Below, piece after piece: positions 41,802 through 50,930 of a stretch of 64,000 nt of DNA. The notes beneath the pieces were generated by a model. That model did not search any database. It was given only the letters and a program-made list of their open reading frames with translations, and had not been told where the DNA came from. Source of the DNA: an uncultured Nitrospiraceae bacterium. Its GTDB lineage: Bacteria > Nitrospirota > Thermodesulfovibrionia > Thermodesulfovibrionales > Dissulfurispiraceae. A program made the translations under genes and the position numbers. The stretch spans positions 128,001 through 192,000 of the forward strand of contig CAVPIW010000010.1 in NCBI GenBank assembly GCA_963705105.1. The letters run 5' to 3'. Positions within the stretch are counted from its first letter, which is position 1, and each line of letters begins with the position of its first letter.

Positions 41802-42344
41802 ATGGAAGAGGCGAGGAAATTTCAGGCAAAGAACGGTGAAACGATCACCATCAGACCTGCTGAGCCGGTAGACTCCTGCGAGATCATCGACACGATCCGG
41901 TCCAACGCGCAGGAGCGGAGCTACGTCCTTATGGAACAATACGGCAAGACCGTCAAGTCCGAGCAGGCATATATCTCCGGCATCGACCGGAACAAGAACC
42001 TCCTCATCGTCGCCGCTGTCGGCGTCGAAGTCATCGGGTGCCTTGCCGCCCTTCAGGCAGACGGCGGGAAACGGGAAGAAACGGCACATATCCTCCACGT
42101 CGGTCTTCACCTGAAGGAGGCGTACCGCGGCCTCGGCATAGGAGGACAGATGCTCTCCTACGCGGTCGAATGGGCCCGGGAGGCGGGGTTCGGGAAGATC
42201 GAGGCGAGCATATTCACCATGAACAAGGTCTCCCTCAAGCTCTTCAGCCACGCCGGGTTCACCGAGGAAGGGGTCAGGCACAAAAGGATACGGCTCGGAT
42301 CGGAGTTCATTGACGAGGTCCTCATGGGGAAGGTCCTTGAATGA
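41802..42344 (+). CDS. GNAT N-acetyltransferase
   Basis: YRGLGIG acetyl-CoA motif; N..SLKLF..AGF. Confidence 0.88.
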   Translation: MEEARKFQAKNGETITIRPAEPVDSCEIIDTIRSNAQERSYVLMEQYGKTVKSEQAYISGIDRNKNLLIVAAVGVEVIGCLAALQADGGKREETAHILHVGLHLKEAYRGLGIGGQMLSYAVEWAREAGFGKIEASIFTMNKVSLKLFSHAGFTEEGVRHKRIRLGSEFIDEVLMGKVLE

Positions 42345-43265
42345 CCGTCGTGACGGGCCTGGGGCAGTGCTGCCTCGACTCCCTCGTTCTCGTCGACGGC
42401 TATCCCCCTGCGGATTCGAAAAAAGAGGTGCTCGCGTGGCATGAGCAGGGCGGCGGCCCCGTCGCCACGGCACTCGTTGCGCTTTCTCGCCTCGGCGTGT
42501 CCTGTCGATTCTACGGCATCACAGGCGATGACGAGGCCGGCGAGAAGATACGGCAGTCCCTTTCTGAGGAAGGGATCGATGTCAGGGGTCTTGTCCGGCG
42601 CCGGGGGGCTCTTTCTCAGAGGGCCTTCATCGTCGTCGACCGCTCAAGCGCAAAGAGGACGATCTTCTGGAAGCGGCCGACGGGCGATCCTCTGAGACCG
42701 GAAGAGCTCGGATGAGACATTTTGAATGACAGCTCCTTCCTCCTCCTCGACGGCCTCATGGCCGATGCATCCATAGCGGCTGCGCAGTCTGCGAGAGCCC
42801 TCGGTGTGCCTGTCATGCTCGATGCAGGGAGGATGAGGGCGGGGATGACCGATGTGGCCATGCACTCCGATTATCTCGTGGCTTCGGAGGAGTTTGCCCG
42901 TGACCTGGTCTGGGACGTCACGCCGGAGCATCTGGAGAGGGAACGGGAACGACTCGGTGTCCGGGCGGTTACGGTGACGCTCGGGGACAGGGGCAGTGTC
43001 ACGGCAAGCTCGGACAGTGCCTTTCTGACGCCTGCCTTCCCGGTCGAGGCCGTCGACACGACCGGCGCCGGGGACGTGTTTCACGGCGGTATATATCTAC
43101 GGGTTGCTTCAGGGCTGGCAGCTTGCCGATACGGTGACGTTCGCCTCGGCACTGGCGGCGATGAAGTGCACAAAGATAGGGGGGAGGGCCGGCATCCCCA
43201 ACCTTGAAGAGGTCACCCGCTTCATGCAAAAGCACGGCCATCCCTCAACATCATGCCGTACGTAG
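42341..43265 (+). CDS. PfkB-family sugar kinase, with in-frame TGA at 42713 and a frameshift near 43091 (pseudogene or sequence error)
   Basis: GGGPVATA and DTTGAGDVFHG; the shifted frame continues YIYGLLQGW...FASALAAMKC..IGGRAGIP. Confidence 0.8.
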
Positions 43266-43333
43266 GGTCTGCTCCCCGAGCAGACCGCGTCATTAATGTC
43301 GGGCCGTTCGGGGAACGGCCCCTACAGGATTCC

Positions 43334-43470
43334 ACTTTTCACCACATCAGCCTCCCCGTCGTGCGTCTGTCATCCAATTCCTGTCTATTGTCTACTGTCT
43401 ACTGTTTCCTGTCTAATGTTGCGTGGCAGCTTCGCCCCGCCTTTCCGGAAAGCGTATACAGCGATAAGGA
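43334..43470. repeat. MITE-like family A, partial right arm
   Basis: CTTTTCACCACATCAGCC, CTACTGT repeats, CTTCGCCCCGCCTTTCCGG...CGATAAGG. Confidence 0.65.
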
Positions 43471-43518
43471 CTATCCTGTTGTTTCTTAACGTTCTTTGCT
43501 GCTTTGCGTGAGACGGAC

Positions 43519-44634
43519 TTAGGTGCTCCTTTCACGGGTGACAGCCCCTGCCGAGTTTTTCTTCAGGAAGCGCTTGAGCCGGAGGCGGTTGAAATACGTA
43601 ACGGGGCTCTCCGATGCCTTCACCTTCCCTTTCAGCACAGCTTCAGGTTCCAAGATCAGGTCAAGGACATGGGCTGTAGAAGTTATCTTGTTGAGAAAGT
43701 TGACGCAGCCTGCGCAGTAGGTGATCACCTTCTTGTCCTTCACCTCTCCCTTCCGTATTTGACCCCATGTCCCGGCCAGTTCCGGTGACAGGAAACCCAC
43801 GGCCCCGCCTTCTCCGCAACAAAGGGTCTTCGTCCTGGAATGCACCATCTCCTCGACCGTGAGCCCGACAGCAGTGACGAGACTCCTCACGGCATCATGG
43901 ATGCCTTCTTCAAACCGCACGGCGCAGGGATCATGAATCATTACGTTACCGCTGACACGGGGCATCTTCGGCAGCTCAAGCTCGGCCATGACTTCATACA
44001 CGGTCCTGACGGAGAGGGGAGCGCCGAAGCGGCTGAATATCTTATGGCAGTTGGGACAGGCGACGAGAACATGCTGCACACCCTGATCCAGGAGGTATCC
44101 TTTCATTTCATCAAACATGATTGTCATGTGTGACTCGCGGCCGAGATCGTGGGAGGGATTGGTGCAGCAGTCGAGGACTATGCCGATGTCTGGAATGTTG
44201 TGTTTTAATTGTTCAAACGCTTTAAGCACCGTGCCGGGCCTCGCTCCGGGCAGGGCGCAGCCGGGGAAAAAGACGGTCCTGCATCCCTGCGGAAGCATGT
44301 AATGCGTGTACCTCCGGGACGTTCCCCTGCGCTCGTATCCGAGAAACGACTCGTGCTCCCGATATGTCCCGAAGCCTCTCGACACTGCCTCCCTGCGCAT
44401 TTCGAGAAACATATCGGAAGGATTGACTTTTACGGGACAGACGGCTGCGCACAACCGGCACAGGCTGCACTCGAAGGGCATCCTGTGGTGTTTTCCCTTA
44501 CCAGGGTCATATGACCCTGCGATGTCTTTCGGCTTGCCGTATTTTCTGAGAAAGGCGCATTCCTTCTGGCAAAGGTCGCACATGATGCAGCCGCTGAAAA
44601 TGCCCTCCAGTTGCTGCCGAAGCGCGAACCTCAT
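43519..44634 (-). CDS. Fe-S oxidoreductase (4Fe-4S dicluster + CCG domains, HdrD/GlpC-like)
   Basis: CIMCDLCQKEC, CSLCRLCAAVCP, FFPGC, DCC, HDPC, CCGEGG. Confidence 0.88.
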   Translation of the reverse strand: MRFALRQQLEGIFSGCIMCDLCQKECAFLRKYGKPKDIAGSYDPGKGKHHRMPFECSLCRLCAAVCPVKVNPSDMFLEMRREAVSRGFGTYREHESFLGYERRGTSRRYTHYMLPQGCRTVFFPGCALPGARPGTVLKAFEQLKHNIPDIGIVLDCCTNPSHDLGRESHMTIMFDEMKGYLLDQGVQHVLVACPNCHKIFSRFGAPLSVRTVYEVMAELELPKMPRVSGNVMIHDPCAVRFEEGIHDAVRSLVTAVGLTVEEMVHSRTKTLCCGEGGAVGFLSPELAGTWGQIRKGEVKDKKVITYCAGCVNFLNKITSTAHVLDLILEPEAVLKGKVKASESPVTYFNRLRLKRFLKKNSAGAVTRERST

Positions 44635-44647
44635 GGTCCAGGCACCC

Positions 44648-45148
44648 TCACTCCCTGCAGAGACCTGAAAATATGCTGCGGAGTGTCGCCTCGTCAATCC
44701 TCTTCATGAGGTCCTCCTCGAATGCTTCCGACCATCGTCGCTCCTCCTCGAGAATCAGAAACTCCGAAGGCATATCGTCGGCGTCGTCTTCGGCGCACAT
44801 TTCCTCACTGCCATATCTGTCGATGACGGACTGAAAACCCTTGTTCCTCTCGATCCAGCGCAGGCATTCCTCATGGTTGCCCAGGAAGAGAAGCACAAGC
44901 ACGTTCTCCTGCCTCTGGCAGATCATCCGATAACCGTCAGCAAGGTCATATTTAAGACACTTTTTGATCCGGTGTTCGCCCCATCTCGTCATTCTGCGCG
45001 CATCGGCAATCTCACATATTTCCAGAGACTTGATCCGCTCGATAACCTTTTCCGCCTTTCTTGCCACGACTGCCGATTTGCCCCCCTTCCGCTTGAGGAC
45101 CGCCAGGCTTTTCTCGAACTTCTCATCGCGAATGATCGTCATGTTCAT
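44648..45148 (-). CDS. Hypothetical protein with possible RelE/ParE-like N-terminal fold and acidic tail
   Basis: KFEKSL...KYDLADGYRMI...LLFLGNHEE pattern. Confidence 0.5.
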   Translation of the reverse strand: MNMTIIRDEKFEKSLAVLKRKGGKSAVVARKAEKVIERIKSLEICEIADARRMTRWGEHRIKKCLKYDLADGYRMICQRQENVLVLLFLGNHEECLRWIERNKGFQSVIDRYGSEEMCAEDDADDMPSEFLILEEERRWSEAFEEDLMKRIDEATLRSIFSGLCRE

Positions 45149-45154
45149 CTCGTT

Positions 45155-45370
45155 ACCCTTATCGTCGCAAAATACTCCCCGGAAAGACGGGGCGTATGCG
45201 CCGAAAACCTTGCTGCGGCGACACCGTAACCCTCACAGAAGACAACCTTTCAGGCCAATGGTCGATCACACAAAGAGTGGAATCATGAAAGACAAACCTT
45301 ACGAGGAGTATCGTCGCCTTCAGCAAGGCTTTGAGGCGCTTCGCCCCGTCCTTCTGTGCAAGGTTACCTT
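45155..45370. repeat. MITE-like family A, copy 4
   Basis: Inverted homologue of 59627-59840. Confidence 0.8.
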
Positions 45371-45412
45371 ATTTTTGCATCCGCCCTCCCATGCAACAGG
45401 AGGAATCATTTC

Positions 45413-45922
45413 CTATTTCTTGCCGACCGGGTAGTCCGCGTCCATCCAGGCCTTGATGCCACCGGGATAGCGGTAGACATTCCTGTATCCAAGCTTCACC
45501 GCCCACATGGCGCCGTTGTGGCTGCGGGTGCACTTGGTGAAGCCGCAGTAAAAGACGATGAGTCTGTCCTTGTTCGGACCGAGGAGCTTCTCGAGTTCCG
45601 CCTTCTTCTTGTCATCGAGACTCGTCATCTCCGGGATGGGGAATTCCATCTGCACCGCGCCGGGGACATGATTCTTTTTATAACTGTCCTCGTAAGGCAT
45701 CGTGTCGACGATGAGCATGTCCTTCTTCTGGTCGATCCAGCCCTTCAATTCCTCCGTTGTGACGATCTTGTAGCCGCCCCTCGCAACCTCGCGAGCGAAG
45801 GTCACGGCGATCTTCTCCGTCTCCAGTTCCTTGGCGCCCCACGCGGCGATCCCGACACCGGACAGGCCGAACACAACGGCGACAACGACGGCAACGGCGA
45901 TACACAGACCTCTCGTGAACAT
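45413..45922 (-). CDS. Exported single-domain rhodanese (sulfurtransferase)
   Basis: Signal peptide; HVPGA, VFYCGFTKCTRS, YPGGIKAW. Confidence 0.88.
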   Translation of the reverse strand: MFTRGLCIAVAVVVAVVFGLSGVGIAAWGAKELETEKIAVTFAREVARGGYKIVTTEELKGWIDQKKDMLIVDTMPYEDSYKKNHVPGAVQMEFPIPEMTSLDDKKKAELEKLLGPNKDRLIVFYCGFTKCTRSHNGAMWAVKLGYRNVYRYPGGIKAWMDADYPVGKK

Positions 45923-45932
45923 ACAAACCTCC

Positions 45933-46469
45933 TCATATCATCGATTTTATGTGGTTCCACACACCGTGGACGTGCTGCCTCGCCGGTGAAATCCACCGGA
46001 CTATGTACAGATACAGGGCGCCTCCGAGCATGGCGATATCGCGGTAGAAAGCGTTCCACAGACCCGCCTGTCCGCTGATTTCCTCCTCGGAAAAGCAGCC
46101 GCAGTCGATGTCGAGCCCGCTCAGGATGCCGTACCAAAGGACAACGATGAAGAGAACAAGGAGCAGCGTGACAAGGGTAAGACCGCCTGTGACGTTGAAT
46201 ACGAGACCCGCTCCCCCGACCACCTCGAGCACGGGAAGACCGACGGCTATGAAGGGAAGCCAGCTCTCCGGCGCAAGGTCGTAGGAAGCGATCGTCCGGG
46301 CAAAGGCCTTGGGATCCGTGAGTTTGATCACACCCGCATAGATGAAGACGGCGCCTATGACACAGCGCACTGCGAGTGAAAGCCTGCGGTCCGTCAGAAA
46401 TGCGCCGATCCTACGGATGGCCGACCCTGTCGCTGCAGGACTGGTATGAGAGGGATCCCGAATGCTCAT
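45933..46469 (-). CDS. MauE/DoxX family redox membrane protein
   Basis: FIYAGVIKLTDP and GLDIDCGCF. Confidence 0.85.
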   Translation of the reverse strand: MSIRDPSHTSPAATGSAIRRIGAFLTDRRLSLAVRCVIGAVFIYAGVIKLTDPKAFARTIASYDLAPESWLPFIAVGLPVLEVVGGAGLVFNVTGGLTLVTLLLVLFIVVLWYGILSGLDIDCGCFSEEEISGQAGLWNAFYRDIAMLGGALYLYIVRWISPARQHVHGVWNHIKSMI

Positions 46470-46481
46470 TGCACAGCCCCT

Positions 46482-47231
46482 TTACGCGCCGTTCATGGCG
46501 ATACGGGCCGCCCCGAGGGCGGCGAGCATGTCGGGATGACCGGGAACATGCACCCTTGTCCGGAGACGCTCCTCGAACACATGGCGCAGGCAGAGATTCC
46601 GGGCGCAGCCGCCTGCAAAGACCACGTCATCCTTCACACCGACCCTCTGGAGAAGACCGACGACCCTGATCGCGACGGAGCGATGGAGCGCTGCGGCGAT
46701 CGACCCCCTTTCCATCCCCTTTGTGATCAGTCCGATCACCTCCGACTCGGCGAAAACGGTGCACATGCTGTTGATCTTGATGCCGTCATCGCCGGAACCG
46801 CACTGGCTCCCGAATTCGTCCATATCGAAACTTAGGGCCTTCGCCATGATCTCGAGGAACCTGCCGGTGCCGGCCGCGCACCGGTCGTTCATCTCAAAGT
46901 CCGTCACCTGGCCCTCTTCGTTCAGGACGACGACTTTCGTATCCTGTCCGCCGATATCGATGATGGTGCGGCATGTGGGCAGCACCTCGCGTACACCCCT
47001 TGCCACCGCCTTGATCTCCGTGACGGTCCTGACCTCGCCGTGCACCTCAAGGAGGTACCTGCCGTACCCTGTGGCGACAAGCCTGTCCGGCTTTTTCGAT
47101 TCCATGAGCTCCCTGCAGACGGCAAGGGGGTTGTGGCCCGTCTCCCTTCGCTCATAGAGAATGGGACTCCCGCCGTCCAAAAGGGTATATTTGATGTAGC
47201 GGGAGCCGATGTCGATGCCCCCGCAAATCAC
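46482..47231 (-). CDS. ASKHA ATPase [4Fe-4S] activator (HgdC / DCCP-reductase type)
   Basis: GIDIGS, ATGYGR, IDIGGQDTK, MNDRCAAGTG, CTVFAESE. Confidence 0.92.
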   Translation of the reverse strand: MICGGIDIGSRYIKYTLLDGGSPILYERRETGHNPLAVCRELMESKKPDRLVATGYGRYLLEVHGEVRTVTEIKAVARGVREVLPTCRTIIDIGGQDTKVVVLNEEGQVTDFEMNDRCAAGTGRFLEIMAKALSFDMDEFGSQCGSGDDGIKINSMCTVFAESEVIGLITKGMERGSIAAALHRSVAIRVVGLLQRVGVKDDVVFAGGCARNLCLRHVFEERLRTRVHVPGHPDMLAALGAARIAMNGA

Positions 47232-48520
47232 GCGTGGACGCCCTTGCCGATCATCTCCAGAAATGCCTCGATCCTCGTCTTGAGCTGGCCGAAATCCTCC
47301 ATGCTGTAGTCCGTCTCGATCCTCAGGAAGGGCAGGTTGATCGCCTCGACGGCGTTTTTCGCGCGGAACGCCTCCACCATGTAAGGCGTGCAGAACTGAA
47401 GAGCGTAGTGGATGACGCCGTCAGCGCCTAGCCGCTTCGCCATTTCGACGATGTTTTCCATACGTTCCGTATTCGGCGTGAAACAGGCGCAGTCGATGGA
47501 GACATACCGGGAGGCGATGTTGTCCAGTCCCTCATCAACGGTCCGGAAGGCCTCGTCGAGGAGGCTTCTGAAATTCCGCTCGCCGACGCAGGACTCCTCG
47601 CCGACGACGACGGCGCCGCTGCCTTCGATGATGGCGTGGACCTTCCAGTTGGGGATCGCCATGGGAGAGCCCGACAGAAGCACCCGCGTCGTTCCCTTCG
47701 GCGCGACGCCCCTTCCTGCGGTGATTCTCAGGTCCAGTTCGTCGCAGAGCTCATTCACCTTGGCCGTAAACCGCAAAGGATCGTCGTAAAAGGAGACCTG
47801 GTTGATGAGCAGTGCGTCGAGCCCGGAAATCGGGGCGGGATCGGCCTTCCTCAATGCGGCAAGCCTCTGGAGGGCCTTTCTCTTTGCGTTGACGATGGCG
47901 GCGGCCTTCGCCAGGTTGTCGAGGGTGATCCGCCTGCCCGTCACCTCCTCGAGTTTTTTCGCGAAACGCTTCACCTCTTTTGCCCAGAGGCGCCTGCTCT
48001 CCTCACCCTTCATGTTCGGCAATTCCATCACGTAGACCTTCTTCGTGATCTCGTCGAAGATCTCATAGGCCTTTTTCTTTCCGTCGCACGTCGTCTCGCC
48101 GACGATGAGGTCCGTCAGCTCGACGTAGGGGCAGAGACCGGCGAGCTTGAAGCCCATGAAGGCCTTGATGAGGGCGCAGGTGTTGCGGGGGATGTACTGC
48201 TCCGCCTCGGACGTGCCGACGTCGGCGCCGGCGCAAAGGCCGATGCAGACGCCGTCGACGGCGAGGACAAGCTCCTCCGGCACGTAGACGCAAAAGGTGC
48301 CGATCACCTTCTTCCCCTGGTCCTTGGCGTTGACGATCTCCTCGATCCTGAGGCCATGGACCTCCGATATGACGAAATCGAAGTACCCCATGCCTTCGGG
48401 CCTGTTTTTCTGGGAGAGATAGATGTTTTTGTACGCGTCGGACAGGACGGCCAGCAGGCCGTTATGGGCCTCGAGATTGAGGCCGATGGAGCTCCACATG
48501 TTTGTATAATCCTTTGACAT
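47228..48520 (-). CDS. Double-cubane-cluster reductase (2-hydroxyacyl-CoA dehydratase family)
   Basis: GTFCVYVPEE, GLCAG, NTCALIK, CPY, ETTCDGKKK, ESCVG, CACF, QFCTPY, IETDYS; the number of Cys fits the double-cubane subgroup. Confidence 0.85.
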   Translation of the reverse strand: MSKDYTNMWSSIGLNLEAHNGLLAVLSDAYKNIYLSQKNRPEGMGYFDFVISEVHGLRIEEIVNAKDQGKKVIGTFCVYVPEELVLAVDGVCIGLCAGADVGTSEAEQYIPRNTCALIKAFMGFKLAGLCPYVELTDLIVGETTCDGKKKAYEIFDEITKKVYVMELPNMKGEESRRLWAKEVKRFAKKLEEVTGRRITLDNLAKAAAIVNAKRKALQRLAALRKADPAPISGLDALLINQVSFYDDPLRFTAKVNELCDELDLRITAGRGVAPKGTTRVLLSGSPMAIPNWKVHAIIEGSGAVVVGEESCVGERNFRSLLDEAFRTVDEGLDNIASRYVSIDCACFTPNTERMENIVEMAKRLGADGVIHYALQFCTPYMVEAFRAKNAVEAINLPFLRIETDYSMEDFGQLKTRIEAFLEMIGKGVHA

Positions 48521-48595
48521 GATGCGCCTCCTTTATGATGCTTTTTGTATTGCCAGGGCTGCTCCGCAGCCTTTTTGCACGTCCTTCTGCGTATC

Positions 48596-48691
48596 TGGAG
48601 GGGGGTAGTGGGAATCGAACCCACCACAGCGTCTTTGACTACCGTGTTACTGGTTTTGCAGACCAGGCGGGGCGCCAGCCCCTTACCCCCC
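48596..48691 (-). tRNA. Atypical tRNA-Cys(GCA) on a tRNA-Sec-like scaffold (selC*-like)
   Basis: GGGGGGTA/TACCCCCC 8-bp acceptor, U73 + CCA, GGGGC-TGGC-GCCCC D arm, CTGGT-CTGCAAA-ACCAG anticodon arm, long variable arm, GTGGG-TTCGATT-CCCAC T arm. Confidence 0.85.
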
Positions 48692-48887
48692 GTGCGCAGC
48701 CTCCCGGCCGCGATTCAGCAGCCCTTCAGAGCGCCATCTTCGGCGCCCTTTTCATGGGCCGACTGCACGGGGAGTGGATATCTGTGTCCAAACCTGCCTG
48801 CATGAGAATTCCATTGTTCACATCAATACCGTTTTTTGTCATGCCTGACCTATTCGTTCGGGGAAAACACAAAGAAGACCCGCGTGA

Positions 48888-49646
48888 TCAGCGCTCCACC
48901 GGCATCCCCGCATCCTTCCAATCCGCGAAGAGTGACTGGTATATGTTCTTGTAATCCATCTTTATGAGCTTCCTGTATGCAAGATAGCTCCTGCTCCCTG
49001 TGTTGCAATAGACAATAATCTTTTTTTCCTTCGGCAGGATGTCCTGGCTGGTCGCAAAGGTCTCGGCGGGGATGTTTAAAGCCGTCGGGATGTGGCCCTC
49101 CTTATACTCTGCCGCGTCTCTCACGTCGACGAGGACGTACCCGTCCTTATTCCCCTCCATGAGAGCTTTGAGTGCGGTGGGGGAGAGCTTTGTCGTTTCA
49201 ATCTTTTTGTCATAGTCCGGACCGGCAACAATCGGGAGGTTCATCTCCTCCCAAACGGGGAAGCCCTCACTGTAGATGCGAATATTTTTGTACCCGAGAG
49301 CTGCGGCCTTCACGGCGGTACGTTTGCTCTTCCCGCACTTGACACCGTTGCAGTAAAAAACGAGCGGATTCTCCTTGTTCTCAGGAAGCAGGGAACGCTG
49401 CTCGTCAAACTTCTTCTCCGGGATGTTGATCGACCCGACGATGTGGGCCTCGCTAAATTCCTCTTCAGTGCGGGCGTCGACAAGCGCGAAAGGTGTCTTC
49501 TGTTCCATCATTGCCTTGAGTTCAGATGTGGTGATGAGGGGATAGTCCGCCGCCGCCGGACGCCGGTCCGATGTGACCACAACAGCGAAGACGATAAGGA
49601 AAATAATGAATGCACGTCCCAATTGAGCAACACTACGTTGTATCAC
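48888..49646 (-). CDS. Exported tandem-domain rhodanese
   Basis: Signal peptide; FYCNGVKCGKS and VYCNTGSRS; GGAGG RBS. Confidence 0.88.
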   Translation of the reverse strand: MIQRSVAQLGRAFIIFLIVFAVVVTSDRRPAAADYPLITTSELKAMMEQKTPFALVDARTEEEFSEAHIVGSINIPEKKFDEQRSLLPENKENPLVFYCNGVKCGKSKRTAVKAAALGYKNIRIYSEGFPVWEEMNLPIVAGPDYDKKIETTKLSPTALKALMEGNKDGYVLVDVRDAAEYKEGHIPTALNIPAETFATSQDILPKEKKIIVYCNTGSRSYLAYRKLIKMDYKNIYQSLFADWKDAGMPVER

Positions 49647-49732
49647 ACGACCTCCAAATAGATGTTTTTGCAGAAATTGGGAAATTTTATAATAGTCTTT
49701 TTCTATAACTCCAATACATTATTCCGATGTGT

Positions 49733-49747
49733 TATGCATTATGCATA
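49733..49747. promoter_or_regulatory. Palindromic operator (LysR-type T-N11-A compatible) upstream of the rhodanese operon
   Basis: TATGCAT-T-ATGCATA in an AT-rich leader. Confidence 0.4.
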
Positions 49748-49781
49748 GAAAATCACGATTGAAGACAAATATGTGTCCACA

Positions 49782-50100
49782 CCCCTGTCAAAAATATTGT
49801 GCAGCCGGACTTTGAAAAACGAGGATAGGGTGCGGTTTCTGAGGCATAATTCACGGTTGCCTTGCTCGAAAAGACGGTGCAAAACGCCTGAAAAACAGCC
49901 TCGGTGACAGCGTCAGTAAAAGGTTCATCGTTTATTCTCACGTCTGACTGCGATGGTCTGTACGGGAAGGCAGAGGTTTCGCAGCACCGATGCTTTTCAG
50001 CGCATTCGCCCCGTCTTTCCTGAGATCTCATTGCGGTGATAAGGGTTTATTTTGCAAAGAAAGCATGCCCTATCCTCGTATCGCATTATTTTAGGCATCA
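49782..50100. repeat. MITE-like family B, copy 2
   Basis: CCCCTGTCAAAAATA... and ...AGAAAGCATGCCCTATCCTCG...TTATTTT arms match 29397-29639. Confidence 0.7.
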
Positions 50101-50342
50101 TGAAGTGTCCAAAAAACTTTCTTCGTTGCAGACGCACCCAAGAAAGTCTTTTCCCGCTTTTTATACAACGACGGGTCAACCTGAATGATATTGTGGCATC
50201 CCTGTTGCTATAATGATTATTGTGTAAGGCATGAAACGGCGTGTTTTCAGGTGAATGACGGGACGGATCTCCTGAAATGCGGAAACGTCTCCCCGTGAGA
50301 GGACCGTACTGACGACCTGATTGTCACAGCGAGGAGGGGAAA

Positions 50343-50930
50343 ATGGACACGTTGCTCGGTTTGTTCATCGGCATCGGGCTGAGCGCAGCCTGCGGATTCA
50401 GGGTCTTTGTGCCGTTGCTCATTACAAGCGTCGCGGCCCAGAGCGGTCACCTGACCCTGTCGTCGGGATTTGACTGGATCGGCACCGGGCCCGCCGTCAT
50501 TGCCTTCGCAACGGCGACGGTCCTCGAGATCGCCGCCTACTACACCCCCTGGCTCGACAACCTCCTGGACAGCATCATGACACCGGCTGCAGCCATTGCG
50601 GGGACGATCCTCACGGCCTCTCTTGTCGGGGACCTTTCCCCCTTCCTGAAATGGTCACTGGCGATCATCGCCGGCGGCGGGACGGCCGCAGCCGTTCAGG
50701 CCGGGACTGTGATGACGAGAAGCGCCTCCCTCATGACGACGGGCGGCCTCGGAAACGGGCTTGTCGCGACGGCTGAGCTGTTCGGGTCCGCTGTTATCTC
50801 TTTCCTCGCCCTCTTTCTCCCCGTCGTCGTCATCATCATGGTCGTCCTGGCGCTCTCCTTCCTCGTGAGAAGGGCGGCAGGAAGGGAAAAAGCTCCCGCA
50901 CAGCTCGGGCAGACCCGCATGCTGCCCTGA
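50343..50930 (+). CDS. DUF4126-like membrane protein
   Basis: GLSAACGFRVFVP, EIAAYY.PWLDNLLD, TTGGLGN. Confidence 0.85.
   Translation: MDTLLGLFIGIGLSAACGFRVFVPLLITSVAAQSGHLTLSSGFDWIGTGPAVIAFATATVLEIAAYYTPWLDNLLDSIMTPAAAIAGTILTASLVGDLSPFLKWSLAIIAGGGTAAAVQAGTVMTRSASLMTTGGLGNGLVATAELFGSAVISFLALFLPVVVIIMVVLALSFLVRRAAGREKAPAQLGQTRMLP

What the first reader, a model, noticed from the sequence alone, without database searches (positions are those of the whole stretch)
48596..48691. tRNA-Sec-shaped tRNA with a Cys anticodon embedded in a sulfur/redox operon
Seen in sequence: a 96-nt tRNA with an 8-bp acceptor, 5-bp T stem, D stem closed by a 4-nt loop and a long variable arm, which is the bacterial tRNA-Sec architecture. 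It nevertheless carries anticodon GCA and discriminator U73, the CysRS identity elements. Established: canonical tRNA-Cys is short-armed and 7/5; selC*-type tRNA-Cys species are known from some anaerobes and can come with dedicated SelB*/CysRS paralogues. Seen: this gene lies on the same strand between a tandem rhodanese and a double-cubane reductase, with no selB or cysS in the window. Inference: it may supply Cys for these Cys-rich proteins, carry Cys/S/Se outside translation, or act as an mRNA-processing or regulatory element of the operon.
Basis: partly seen in the sequence, partly recalled or inferred. Interest (0 to 1): 0.85.

Follow-up and report, generated by a model that had tools for sequence, protein, structure and literature searches.

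The report
Backup cysteine tRNA in selenium operon
This is a real, conserved extra tRNA of an already described class that is shaped like the selenocysteine tRNA but carries cysteine, most likely so the cell can fill selenocysteine codons with cysteine when selenium is scarce; what is added here is that it sits in an apparently selenium-regulated gene set.

Summary
In detail: window 48596-48691 (-) is a 96-nt 8/5 tRNA with anticodon GCA, U73 and encoded CCA. It is no error: an independent contig keeps both marks, and 48 of 49 distinct homologues have GCA and all 49 have U73. It is a 'Nitrospirae-type' selC* tRNA-Cys (tRNA-ReC), listed by Mukai 2017. Two papers report that a GCA member decodes Sec UGA codons as Cys via SelB, not EF-Tu (primary paper not held). 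The genome has ordinary tRNA-Cys and tRNA-Sec, one selB, one cysS, selA, a UGA-containing selD and further selenoprotein genes. Best reading (0.7): a SelB-delivered Cys backup for UGA codons, co-expressed with selenium-handling genes. Additions not found in my searches: a LysR-type box upstream in 40 of 52 loci versus 0 of 29 controls; neighbours LysR_Sec, YedF, YedE and double-cubane reductase across three phyla; and 119-132-nt homologues with a branched variable arm. The tRNA and the reductase are not obligate partners. New member of a known kind; interest 0.32.

The parts
48596..48691 (-). selC* tRNA-Cys (tRNA-ReC), Nitrospirae type: 8/5 fold, GCA, U73, encoded CCA; T arm identical (17 of 17 nt) to the genome's tRNA-Sec
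49689..49709 (.). weak copy of a LysR-type palindromic box (core ATAG-N7-CTAT at 49692-49706), 43-63 nt upstream of the first gene; putative operator
   Evidence: matrix score 10.6, one of 13 sites at 10 or more in the genome; lacks the adjoining TTGAC seen in relatives; binding is inferred
48888..49646 (-). tandem rhodanese with signal-like N-terminus, active loop CNGVKC; Cys counterpart (30% identity) of a Sec-encoding rhodanese at G000:C14:197460
47228..48520 (-). double-cubane cluster protein (DCCP)
   Evidence: NF040772 above cut-off; E 1e-154 to PDB 7YYL/6ENO with the cluster cysteines aligned
46482..47231 (-). ATP-dependent activase (DCCP reductase type)
   Evidence: TIGR00241 above cut-off, PF01869
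45933..46469 (-). MauE/DoxX-like membrane protein
   Evidence: PF07291; in 3 of 52 tRNA loci
45413..45922 (-). single-domain rhodanese, active loop CGFTKC, TsoB-like below cut-off
44648..45148 (-). small protein with a weak ParE-like match; membership of the operon uncertain, but homologues recur near this tRNA class
   Evidence: PF24732 E 2e-4, below cut-off; maps
43519..44634 (-). 4Fe-4S dicluster/CCG protein, partial match to 'diclust_near_Sec'; start uncertain
   Evidence: NF045663 216 bits, below cut-off 530; PF02754, PF13183

Best explanation
The gene encodes a selC*/tRNA-ReC. It is charged with cysteine by the ordinary CysRS through GCA and U73 (inferred from identity rules). Its 13-bp acceptor/T branch keeps it off EF-Tu and makes it a ligand of the genome's only SelB (inferred here; reported for a Firmicute GCA member). 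SelB bound to a SECIS hairpin brings it to in-frame UGA codons, where G34 misreads the third-position A, so selenoproteins are finished with Cys instead of being truncated. The gene is transcribed within a selenium-metabolism gene set under a LysR_Sec-type regulator, most likely switched on when selenium is short (inferred from a shared box and from HrsM in Methanococcus). The rhodaneses and the double-cubane reductase are co-regulated neighbours (Cys counterparts of selenoproteins or selenium-handling enzymes), not enzymes that act on the tRNA.
For: Shown here: 8/5 fold, GCA and U73 in 48/49 and 49/49 distinct homologues. T arm identical to the genome's tRNA-Sec and unlike its tRNA-Cys. Always an extra tRNA: canonical tRNA-Cys in 46 of 49 and selB in 47 of 49 carrier genomes. 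In 4 of 12 further Nitrospirota-type loci selB follows the tRNA directly, and one genome has two extra selB copies beside two such tRNAs. Across phyla the class alternates between GCA and UCA (35 versus 14 of 49). UGA targets exist: selD with one TGA and about seven more genes recognised by motif. Neighbours: YedF in 21, LysR in 19, YedE in 12 and DCCP in 9 of 52 loci; 35 of 52 have at least one. Box at score 10 or more within 3 kb upstream in 40 of 52 loci (13 of 25 outside the training set) versus 0 of 29 windows further upstream, and in 7 of 19 DCCP loci without the tRNA versus 6 sites in 444 kb of unrelated loci. In print: class and Nitrospirae members (PMC5389517); UGA read as Cys via SelB and not EF-Tu, for GCA and UCA forms (passages of PMC11415595 and PMC13582414 citing Vargas-Rodriguez 2018); HrsM/LysR_Se repress Cys isoform genes when Se is present (PMC5322559, PMC11097638).
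Against: No charging, SelB binding, decoding or expression data for this tRNA. The primary 2018 paper could not be read, and the one organism named for that work in the passages seen is a Firmicute, not this order. The minor CysRS determinant C3-G70 is G3-C70 here, and the E. coli SelB determinant pairs (C7-G66, G49.U65, C50-G64) are not matched literally. The window's own box is weak and lacks the -35 element; 12 of 52 loci have no box within 3 kb and 11 of 52 have none of the core neighbours in the flanks held. The box seed was picked by eye from the same sequences. selB is found in 96 and the LysR family in 97 of 101 relatives, so their co-occurrence with the tRNA (49 of 101) is not discriminating. 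The direction of regulation is borrowed from archaea. My SECIS folds of the selenoprotein genes were heterogeneous. A 119-132-nt tRNA may not fit the ribosome, which would mean some homologues do something else.
Confidence: 0.7

Rival explanations
1. An ordinary extra Cys supply: the tRNA is carried by EF-Tu to UGC/UGU codons when the operon's cysteine-rich proteins are made.
For: GCA pairs perfectly with UGC. The six main operon proteins hold 47 Cys in 1649 residues, 41 of them TGC. An 8/4 selC* variant worked with EF-Tu in E. coli.
Against: A canonical tRNA-Cys is present. The 13-bp branch is fixed in 49 of 49 and a long acceptor stem disfavours EF-Tu. A GCA member is reported not to use EF-Tu. 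It would not explain selB linkage or the switch to UCA in relatives.
Confidence: 0.08
2. A non-translational carrier or substrate: Cys-tRNA is used by the double-cubane reductase or rhodaneses, for example in S/Se exchange on the tRNA.
For: DCCP lies beside the tRNA in three phyla: 9 of 52 order-level loci and 8 of 23 non-Nitrospirota loci. The gene for a protein identical to PDB 7YYL chain C starts 25 nt after such a tRNA gene. The natural DCCP substrate is unknown.
Against: 32 of 49 tRNA genomes have no DCCP match, and 11 of 28 DCCP genomes have no tRNA match; Fisher p 0.18, kin not independent. In one genus the tRNA is intact in one genome and damaged in two while the DCCP gene stays. DCCP genes without the tRNA still carry the box, so co-regulation explains the linkage.
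Confidence: 0.07
3. A regulatory decoy or sensor: the Cys-charged tRNA sequesters SelB, or its processing splits the operon mRNA, tuning selenoprotein output without inserting much Cys.
For: It is usually the first element after the promoter (box 51-70 nt upstream in most training loci). 17 of 49 homologues have a greatly enlarged, branched variable arm. SelB levels are thought to need tight control.
Against: The anticodon loop is near-invariant and switches to UCA in other phyla, as expected for decoding. Published work reports decoding. The two roles are not exclusive.
Confidence: 0.1
4. A true Sec carrier that recodes Cys codons, like the Aeromonas salmonicida tRNA-Sec(GCA).
For: Rfam tRNA-Sec match above gathering score; precedent in print.
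Against: U73 instead of the G73 needed for serylation. The D stem has 5 pairs and the acceptor-to-D linker is two bases short of this genome's tRNA-Sec. A normal tRNA-Sec(UCA) is present. No consistent SECIS-like hairpin after the TGC/TGT codons of three candidate genes (crude test).
Confidence: 0.03

Closest known systems
selC* tRNA-Cys, 'Nitrospirae type' (Mukai et al. 2017, PMC5389517; supplementary sheet 3 and Fig. S11 legend)
   Same: Long variable arm, 8-bp acceptor, GCA, U73; full selABCD in the genome. By eye, two metagenomic entries at the end of the sheet match the window tRNA in the anticodon arm and T arm and differ at two acceptor positions.
   Different: That paper gives no operon, regulator or box for this type in the text I read (figures not seen). 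Its listed sequences are about 90-97 nt, with none of the 119-132-nt forms.
tRNA-ReC of Desulfotomaculum nigrificans (Vargas-Rodriguez et al. 2018, RNA Biol 15:471; seen only through passages of PMC11415595 and PMC13582414)
   Same: Sec-like tRNA-Cys with GCA that uses SelB to read UGA as Cys with a SECIS.
   Different: Clostridial type has a Y50a bulge in the T stem; the window type has a plain 5-bp T stem identical to the host tRNA-Sec. Function untested for this order.
(8/4) selC*-selB*-cysS* loci of Desulfobacterales/Syntrophobacterales (PMC5389517)
   Same: U73, long variable arm, missing linker bases; DCCP and activase often follow.
   Different: 12-bp branch with A51a bulge, often UCA, dedicated SelB* and CysRS*. 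None of these here.
LysR_Se/HrsM, YedE, YedF selenium gene neighbourhood (Lin et al. 2015, PMC5322559) and the DCCP-SelD link (Haft and Gwadz preprint 10.1101/2022.07.06.499078)
   Same: The same families flank the tRNA in relatives; Lin's table already lists dehydratase-family and activase genes beside them; 955 of 970 DCCPs are in SelD genomes.
   Different: The passages read name neither a tRNA-ReC in these neighbourhoods nor a binding box ('binding site' 0 hits in PMC5322559; 'tRNA' 1 unrelated hit in the preprint).

Membership tests
selC* tRNA-Cys / tRNA-ReC | U73 discriminator with GCA or UCA anticodon | tested here: met
   GCA and U73; confirmed in an independent contig
selC* tRNA-Cys / tRNA-ReC | tRNA-Sec-like fold: 8-bp acceptor, long variable arm, at least 80 nt | tested here: met
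   96 nt; Rfam 55.9 bits; covariation
selC* tRNA-Cys / tRNA-ReC | Genome also has selA, selB, selC and selD | tested here: met
selC* tRNA-Cys / tRNA-ReC | Sequence belongs to a published subtype (Nitrospirae type) | tested here: met
   comparison by eye with supplementary sheet 3; not aligned by a tool
selC* tRNA-Cys / tRNA-ReC | Cysteinylated by CysRS, bound by SelB and not EF-Tu, reads UGA with a SECIS | not testable with these tools
   reported for another member
(8/4) delta-proteobacterial selC*-selB*-cysS* subtype | 12-bp branch with A51a bulge | tested here: not met
   5-bp T stem in 49 of 49
(8/4) delta-proteobacterial selC*-selB*-cysS* subtype | Adjacent selB*, and cysS* in the UCA forms | tested here: not met
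   single selB on C7 and single cysS on C6
tRNA-Sec (including sense-codon tRNA-Sec) | G73 for serylation by SerRS | tested here: not met
   U73 in 49 of 49; G73 requirement from PMC5330540
Canonical tRNA-Cys | 7/5 fold with short variable loop | tested here: not met
   8/5 with a 24-nt variable region; the canonical gene is separate at G000:C5:569465
LysR_Se/HrsM selenium regulon | Regulator present and a shared operator upstream of member genes | tested here: inconclusive
   two NF040786 genes above cut-off; box enriched across relatives but weak at this locus; binding not shown

The most novel reading that the evidence does not exclude
The tRNA is not only a backup decoder but a working part of a selenium-scavenging module: Cys-tRNA (with a variable arm that in a third of homologues has grown into a three-way junction, a possible protein-docking site) is handled by the ATP-driven double-cubane reductase and rhodaneses, for example exchanging S for Se on the tRNA to give Sec-tRNA without SelA. 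That would supply the missing natural substrate of DCCP.
Probability: 0.05. Interest if true: 0.9.

Novelty: new member of a known kind. Interest (0 to 1): 0.32.

Why it matters
The tRNA class and its UGA-to-Cys function are published, so the gene itself is not a discovery. What remains open in print is when cells use it: a 2026 paper says the division of labour between tRNA-Sec and tRNA-ReC is unclear. The conserved LysR-type box gives a direct test that it is a selenium-starvation switch of the genetic code. The same box ties double-cubane reductases, whose substrate is unknown, to that response. The 119-132-nt homologues exceed the 90-101 nt given for the longest tRNAs and are missed by ARAGORN, so they test how much variable arm SelB and the ribosome tolerate. 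In these genomes an in-frame UGA cannot be assumed to give Sec.

Tried and rejected
Sequencing error: rejected. Dedicated SelB*: none among 101 relatives (96 have exactly one selB). Dedicated CysRS*: 33 of 101 relatives have a second, shorter cysS, but it is not associated with the tRNA (13 of 49 versus 20 of 52, p 0.21) and is absent here. Obligate tRNA-DCCP partnership: rejected. SECIS after Cys codons: no consistent hairpin in three genes. Expression: no RNA holder listed; this is not evidence either way. Promoter/terminator scan of 43000-50350: counts at chance level (5 versus 3.3 and 6 versus 6.9), no informative site. The pattern was mis-specified and its result is void; the covariance model search replaced it. 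Rfam found no family for the structured motif upstream of deltaproteobacterial copies (5 loci), and its covariation support is poor (1 of 15 pairs). Papers not held: Vargas-Rodriguez 2018, Mukai 2016, Jeoung and Dobbek 2018.

Full report
Observation. ARAGORN calls tRNA-Cys(GCA) at 48596-48691 on the minus strand, and Rfam's tRNA-Sec model scores it 55.9 bits, above the gathering score of 47. Its lowest-energy fold is an 8/5 cloverleaf with a 5-bp D stem, a UGGC loop, a 24-nt variable region, U73 and encoded CCA. A contig of public run X2 covers 47200-48935 with 20 differences, all listed, none at the anticodon or N73. The genome (G000, 99% complete) also has a canonical 74-nt tRNA-Cys, an ordinary tRNA-Sec(UCA, G73), one selB, one cysS, selA and a selD with an in-frame TGA, all on other contigs.

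Conservation. A DNA search of 101 genomes (G000 and 100 relatives of the same family and order) matched 50. Of 54 regions fetched, 51 held such a tRNA and 3 were ordinary tRNA-Sec. With the window that makes 52 loci. I dropped one of another subtype (L090) and one with a damaged T arm (L089) and merged one identical pair, leaving 49 distinct sequences: 48 have GCA, 1 has GUA, all 49 end in U73-CCA, each of the 8 acceptor pairs is kept in 48 or 49, and each of the 5 T-stem pairs in all 49. On 32 short forms, 17 of 29 pairs show two-sided changes. Counting by genome with a covariance model as well, 49 of 101 carry it; one of these rests on the model score alone, one is the damaged copy, and two weaker model hits were not examined. 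Of the 49, 46 have a canonical tRNA-Cys and 47 a selB. It is an extra tRNA, not a replacement.

What it is. Mukai et al. 2017 (PMC5389517; I read the abstract, methods, results, conclusion, part 1 of the supplement and its sheet of selC* sequences, not the figures) define selC* tRNA-Cys as Sec-like tRNAs with U73 and GCA or UCA, found in Firmicutes, Thermodesulfobacteria, Nitrospirae and deltaproteobacteria, with the 8/4 bulged fold only in some deltaproteobacteria. Their sheet lists three Thermodesulfovibrio sequences and two metagenomic ones that by eye match the window tRNA closely outside the variable arm. Passages of two later papers state that the D. nigrificans GCA member decodes Sec UGA codons as Cys, is delivered by SelB and does not interact with EF-Tu (PMC11415595), and that both anticodon types recode UGA in the presence of a SECIS (PMC13582414). 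The window tRNA is therefore a new member of a known class.

Fit of the known mechanism here. The T arm is identical over 17 nt to the host tRNA-Sec and unlike the host tRNA-Cys. There is no second selB in any of 96 relatives with selB, so the partner would be the ordinary SelB. Across those 49, the anticodon is GCA in 35 and UCA in 14. Targets exist: besides SelD, a crude scan of 74 candidates gave about seven genes that I recognise by motif, from recall, as selenoproteins (formate dehydrogenase, DsbA-like, glutaredoxin-like, a hydrogenase large subunit with CxxU, two rhodaneses, one uncertain). One of them has Sec where the window's tandem rhodanese has Cys (30% identity). Against: the minor CysRS pair C3-G70 is reversed, the E. 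coli SelB determinant pairs are not matched literally, and nothing was tested biochemically.

The neighbourhood. In 52 loci (flanks up to 8 kb, often cut by contig ends) the commonest neighbours are YedF (21), a LysR regulator (19), a C_GCAxxG_C_C protein (13), YedE/TsuA (12), activase (10), DCCP (9) and a transglutaminase-like protein (9); 35 have at least one of YedF, LysR, YedE or DCCP and 11 have none of the core set. One representative of each cluster was named by family scans: YedF TIGR03527 and LysR_Sec_metab NF040786 passed their cut-offs, the YedE-like one did not. These families are known selenium-metabolism neighbours (PMC5322559, passages), and DCCPs track SelD (preprint 10.1101/2022.07.06.499078, passages). 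DCCP also lies beside the tRNA in 8 of 23 non-Nitrospirota loci, deltaproteobacterial and Firmicute. In genome G106 the gene for a protein identical over 421 residues to PDB 7YYL chain C begins 25 nt after such a tRNA gene whose T loop is damaged; the copy is intact in G101 and decayed in G107. The link is not obligate: 17 genomes have both, 32 only the tRNA and 11 only DCCP.

A shared operator. Upstream sequences show ATAG-N7-CTAT abutting a TTGAC -35 element, usually 51-70 nt before the tRNA. It is found in 27 of 52 loci against 0.16 in shuffles (the seed was chosen from these sequences). A matrix built from it scores 10 or more within 3 kb upstream in 40 of 52 loci, including 13 of 25 not used for training, against 0 of 29 windows further upstream. 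It also hits 7 of 19 DCCP loci that lack the tRNA, against 6 sites in 444 kb of unrelated loci. In the window the site ahead of the first rhodanese scores only 10.6, one of 13 such sites in the genome, and lacks the -35 element. The best genomic site precedes a HesB-like gene with Cys in its GGCC motif (family name from recall). The likely orthologous LysR here lies on C6 beside the same QueE-like and Nudix-like genes (labels from recall) that precede the tRNA in relatives, so the cluster seems to have moved. In Methanococcus the related HrsM represses Cys isoform genes when selenium is present, and yedE rises on depletion. That this LysR binds the box, and that the genes are induced by low selenium, are inferences.

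Long forms. 17 of the 49 distinct homologues are 119-132 nt. The usual 6-bp variable stem encloses a purine-rich 4-nt linker, a hairpin whose base pairs vary on both sides, and a short 3' element that pairs in about half of the predicted folds; the mean folding z-score of the insert is -1.4. The alignment-based fold did not recover the inner helices, so the three-way junction is a moderate inference. ARAGORN missed all five homologues of 102 nt or more, including the one 127-nt form tested. The window's variable arm has the same outer stem with a minimal hairpin. tRNA-Sec is given as the longest tRNA at 90-101 nt (PMC5330540, passages). One paper search (listing only) and one search of earlier notes showed no report of these forms.

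Verdict. Real, conserved and already classed. The most likely role is a SelB-delivered cysteine backup at Sec UGA codons within a selenium-responsive gene set (0.7). Other papers seen as passages: PMC7609411, PMC13188914, PMC7306483, PMC11097638, PMC8124441, PMC8762117, PMC9976931.

Noticed in passing
L047, L062, L072-L079, L081-L088 (e.g. L072:7989-8118, L088:7962-8088): Homologues of 119-132 nt with a branched variable arm; missed by ARAGORN where tested; longer than the 90-101 nt quoted for the longest tRNAs.
   Followed up: partly
L270:1588-1682 and 1707-2972: The gene for a protein identical to the crystallised DCCP (PDB 7YYL) lies 25 nt behind a selC* gene with a damaged T loop.
   Followed up: yes
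L131:5820-5900, L143, L146, L148, L161, L162, L218, L129: A conserved, hairpin-forming sequence 139-150 nt upstream of deltaproteobacterial selC* genes (8 of 17 loci checked); no Rfam match in 5 tested; weak covariation; possible cis-regulatory RNA. Not seen in the window.
   Followed up: partly
G000:C6, L019:835-2967: cysS lies in one 710-aa frame behind a serine acetyltransferase-like (CysE; name from recall) N-terminal part; open frames of about 705-760 aa in most relatives suggest a widespread fusion.
   Followed up: partly
33 of 101 relatives: A second cysS of about 400 aa lacking the C-terminal part of the model; not associated with the tRNA and absent from G000.
   Followed up: partly
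G000:C10:49824-51521 (-): NiFe hydrogenase large subunit with an in-frame TGA in the N-terminal CxxC motif (CxxU).
   Followed up: no
L067:5391-5486: A homologue with anticodon GUA (Tyr) but U73; mutation or decay not examined.
   Followed up: no
L047 (G016), L066/L077 (G050), L072/L086 (G030), L058/L080 (G096): Some genomes carry two copies, in one case a long and a short form, and some second copies look decayed.
   Followed up: no
G000:C4:10181-12340: An array of 23 tRNA genes in about 2.2 kb.
   Followed up: no
window 42341-43207: A PfkB-type sugar kinase appears split into two ORFs (124 and 161 aa) at a stop near 42713.
   Followed up: no
window 44648-45148: Small protein with a weak ParE-like match whose homologues recur next to selC* loci (L051, L057, L100, L101, L111, L161).
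   Followed up: no
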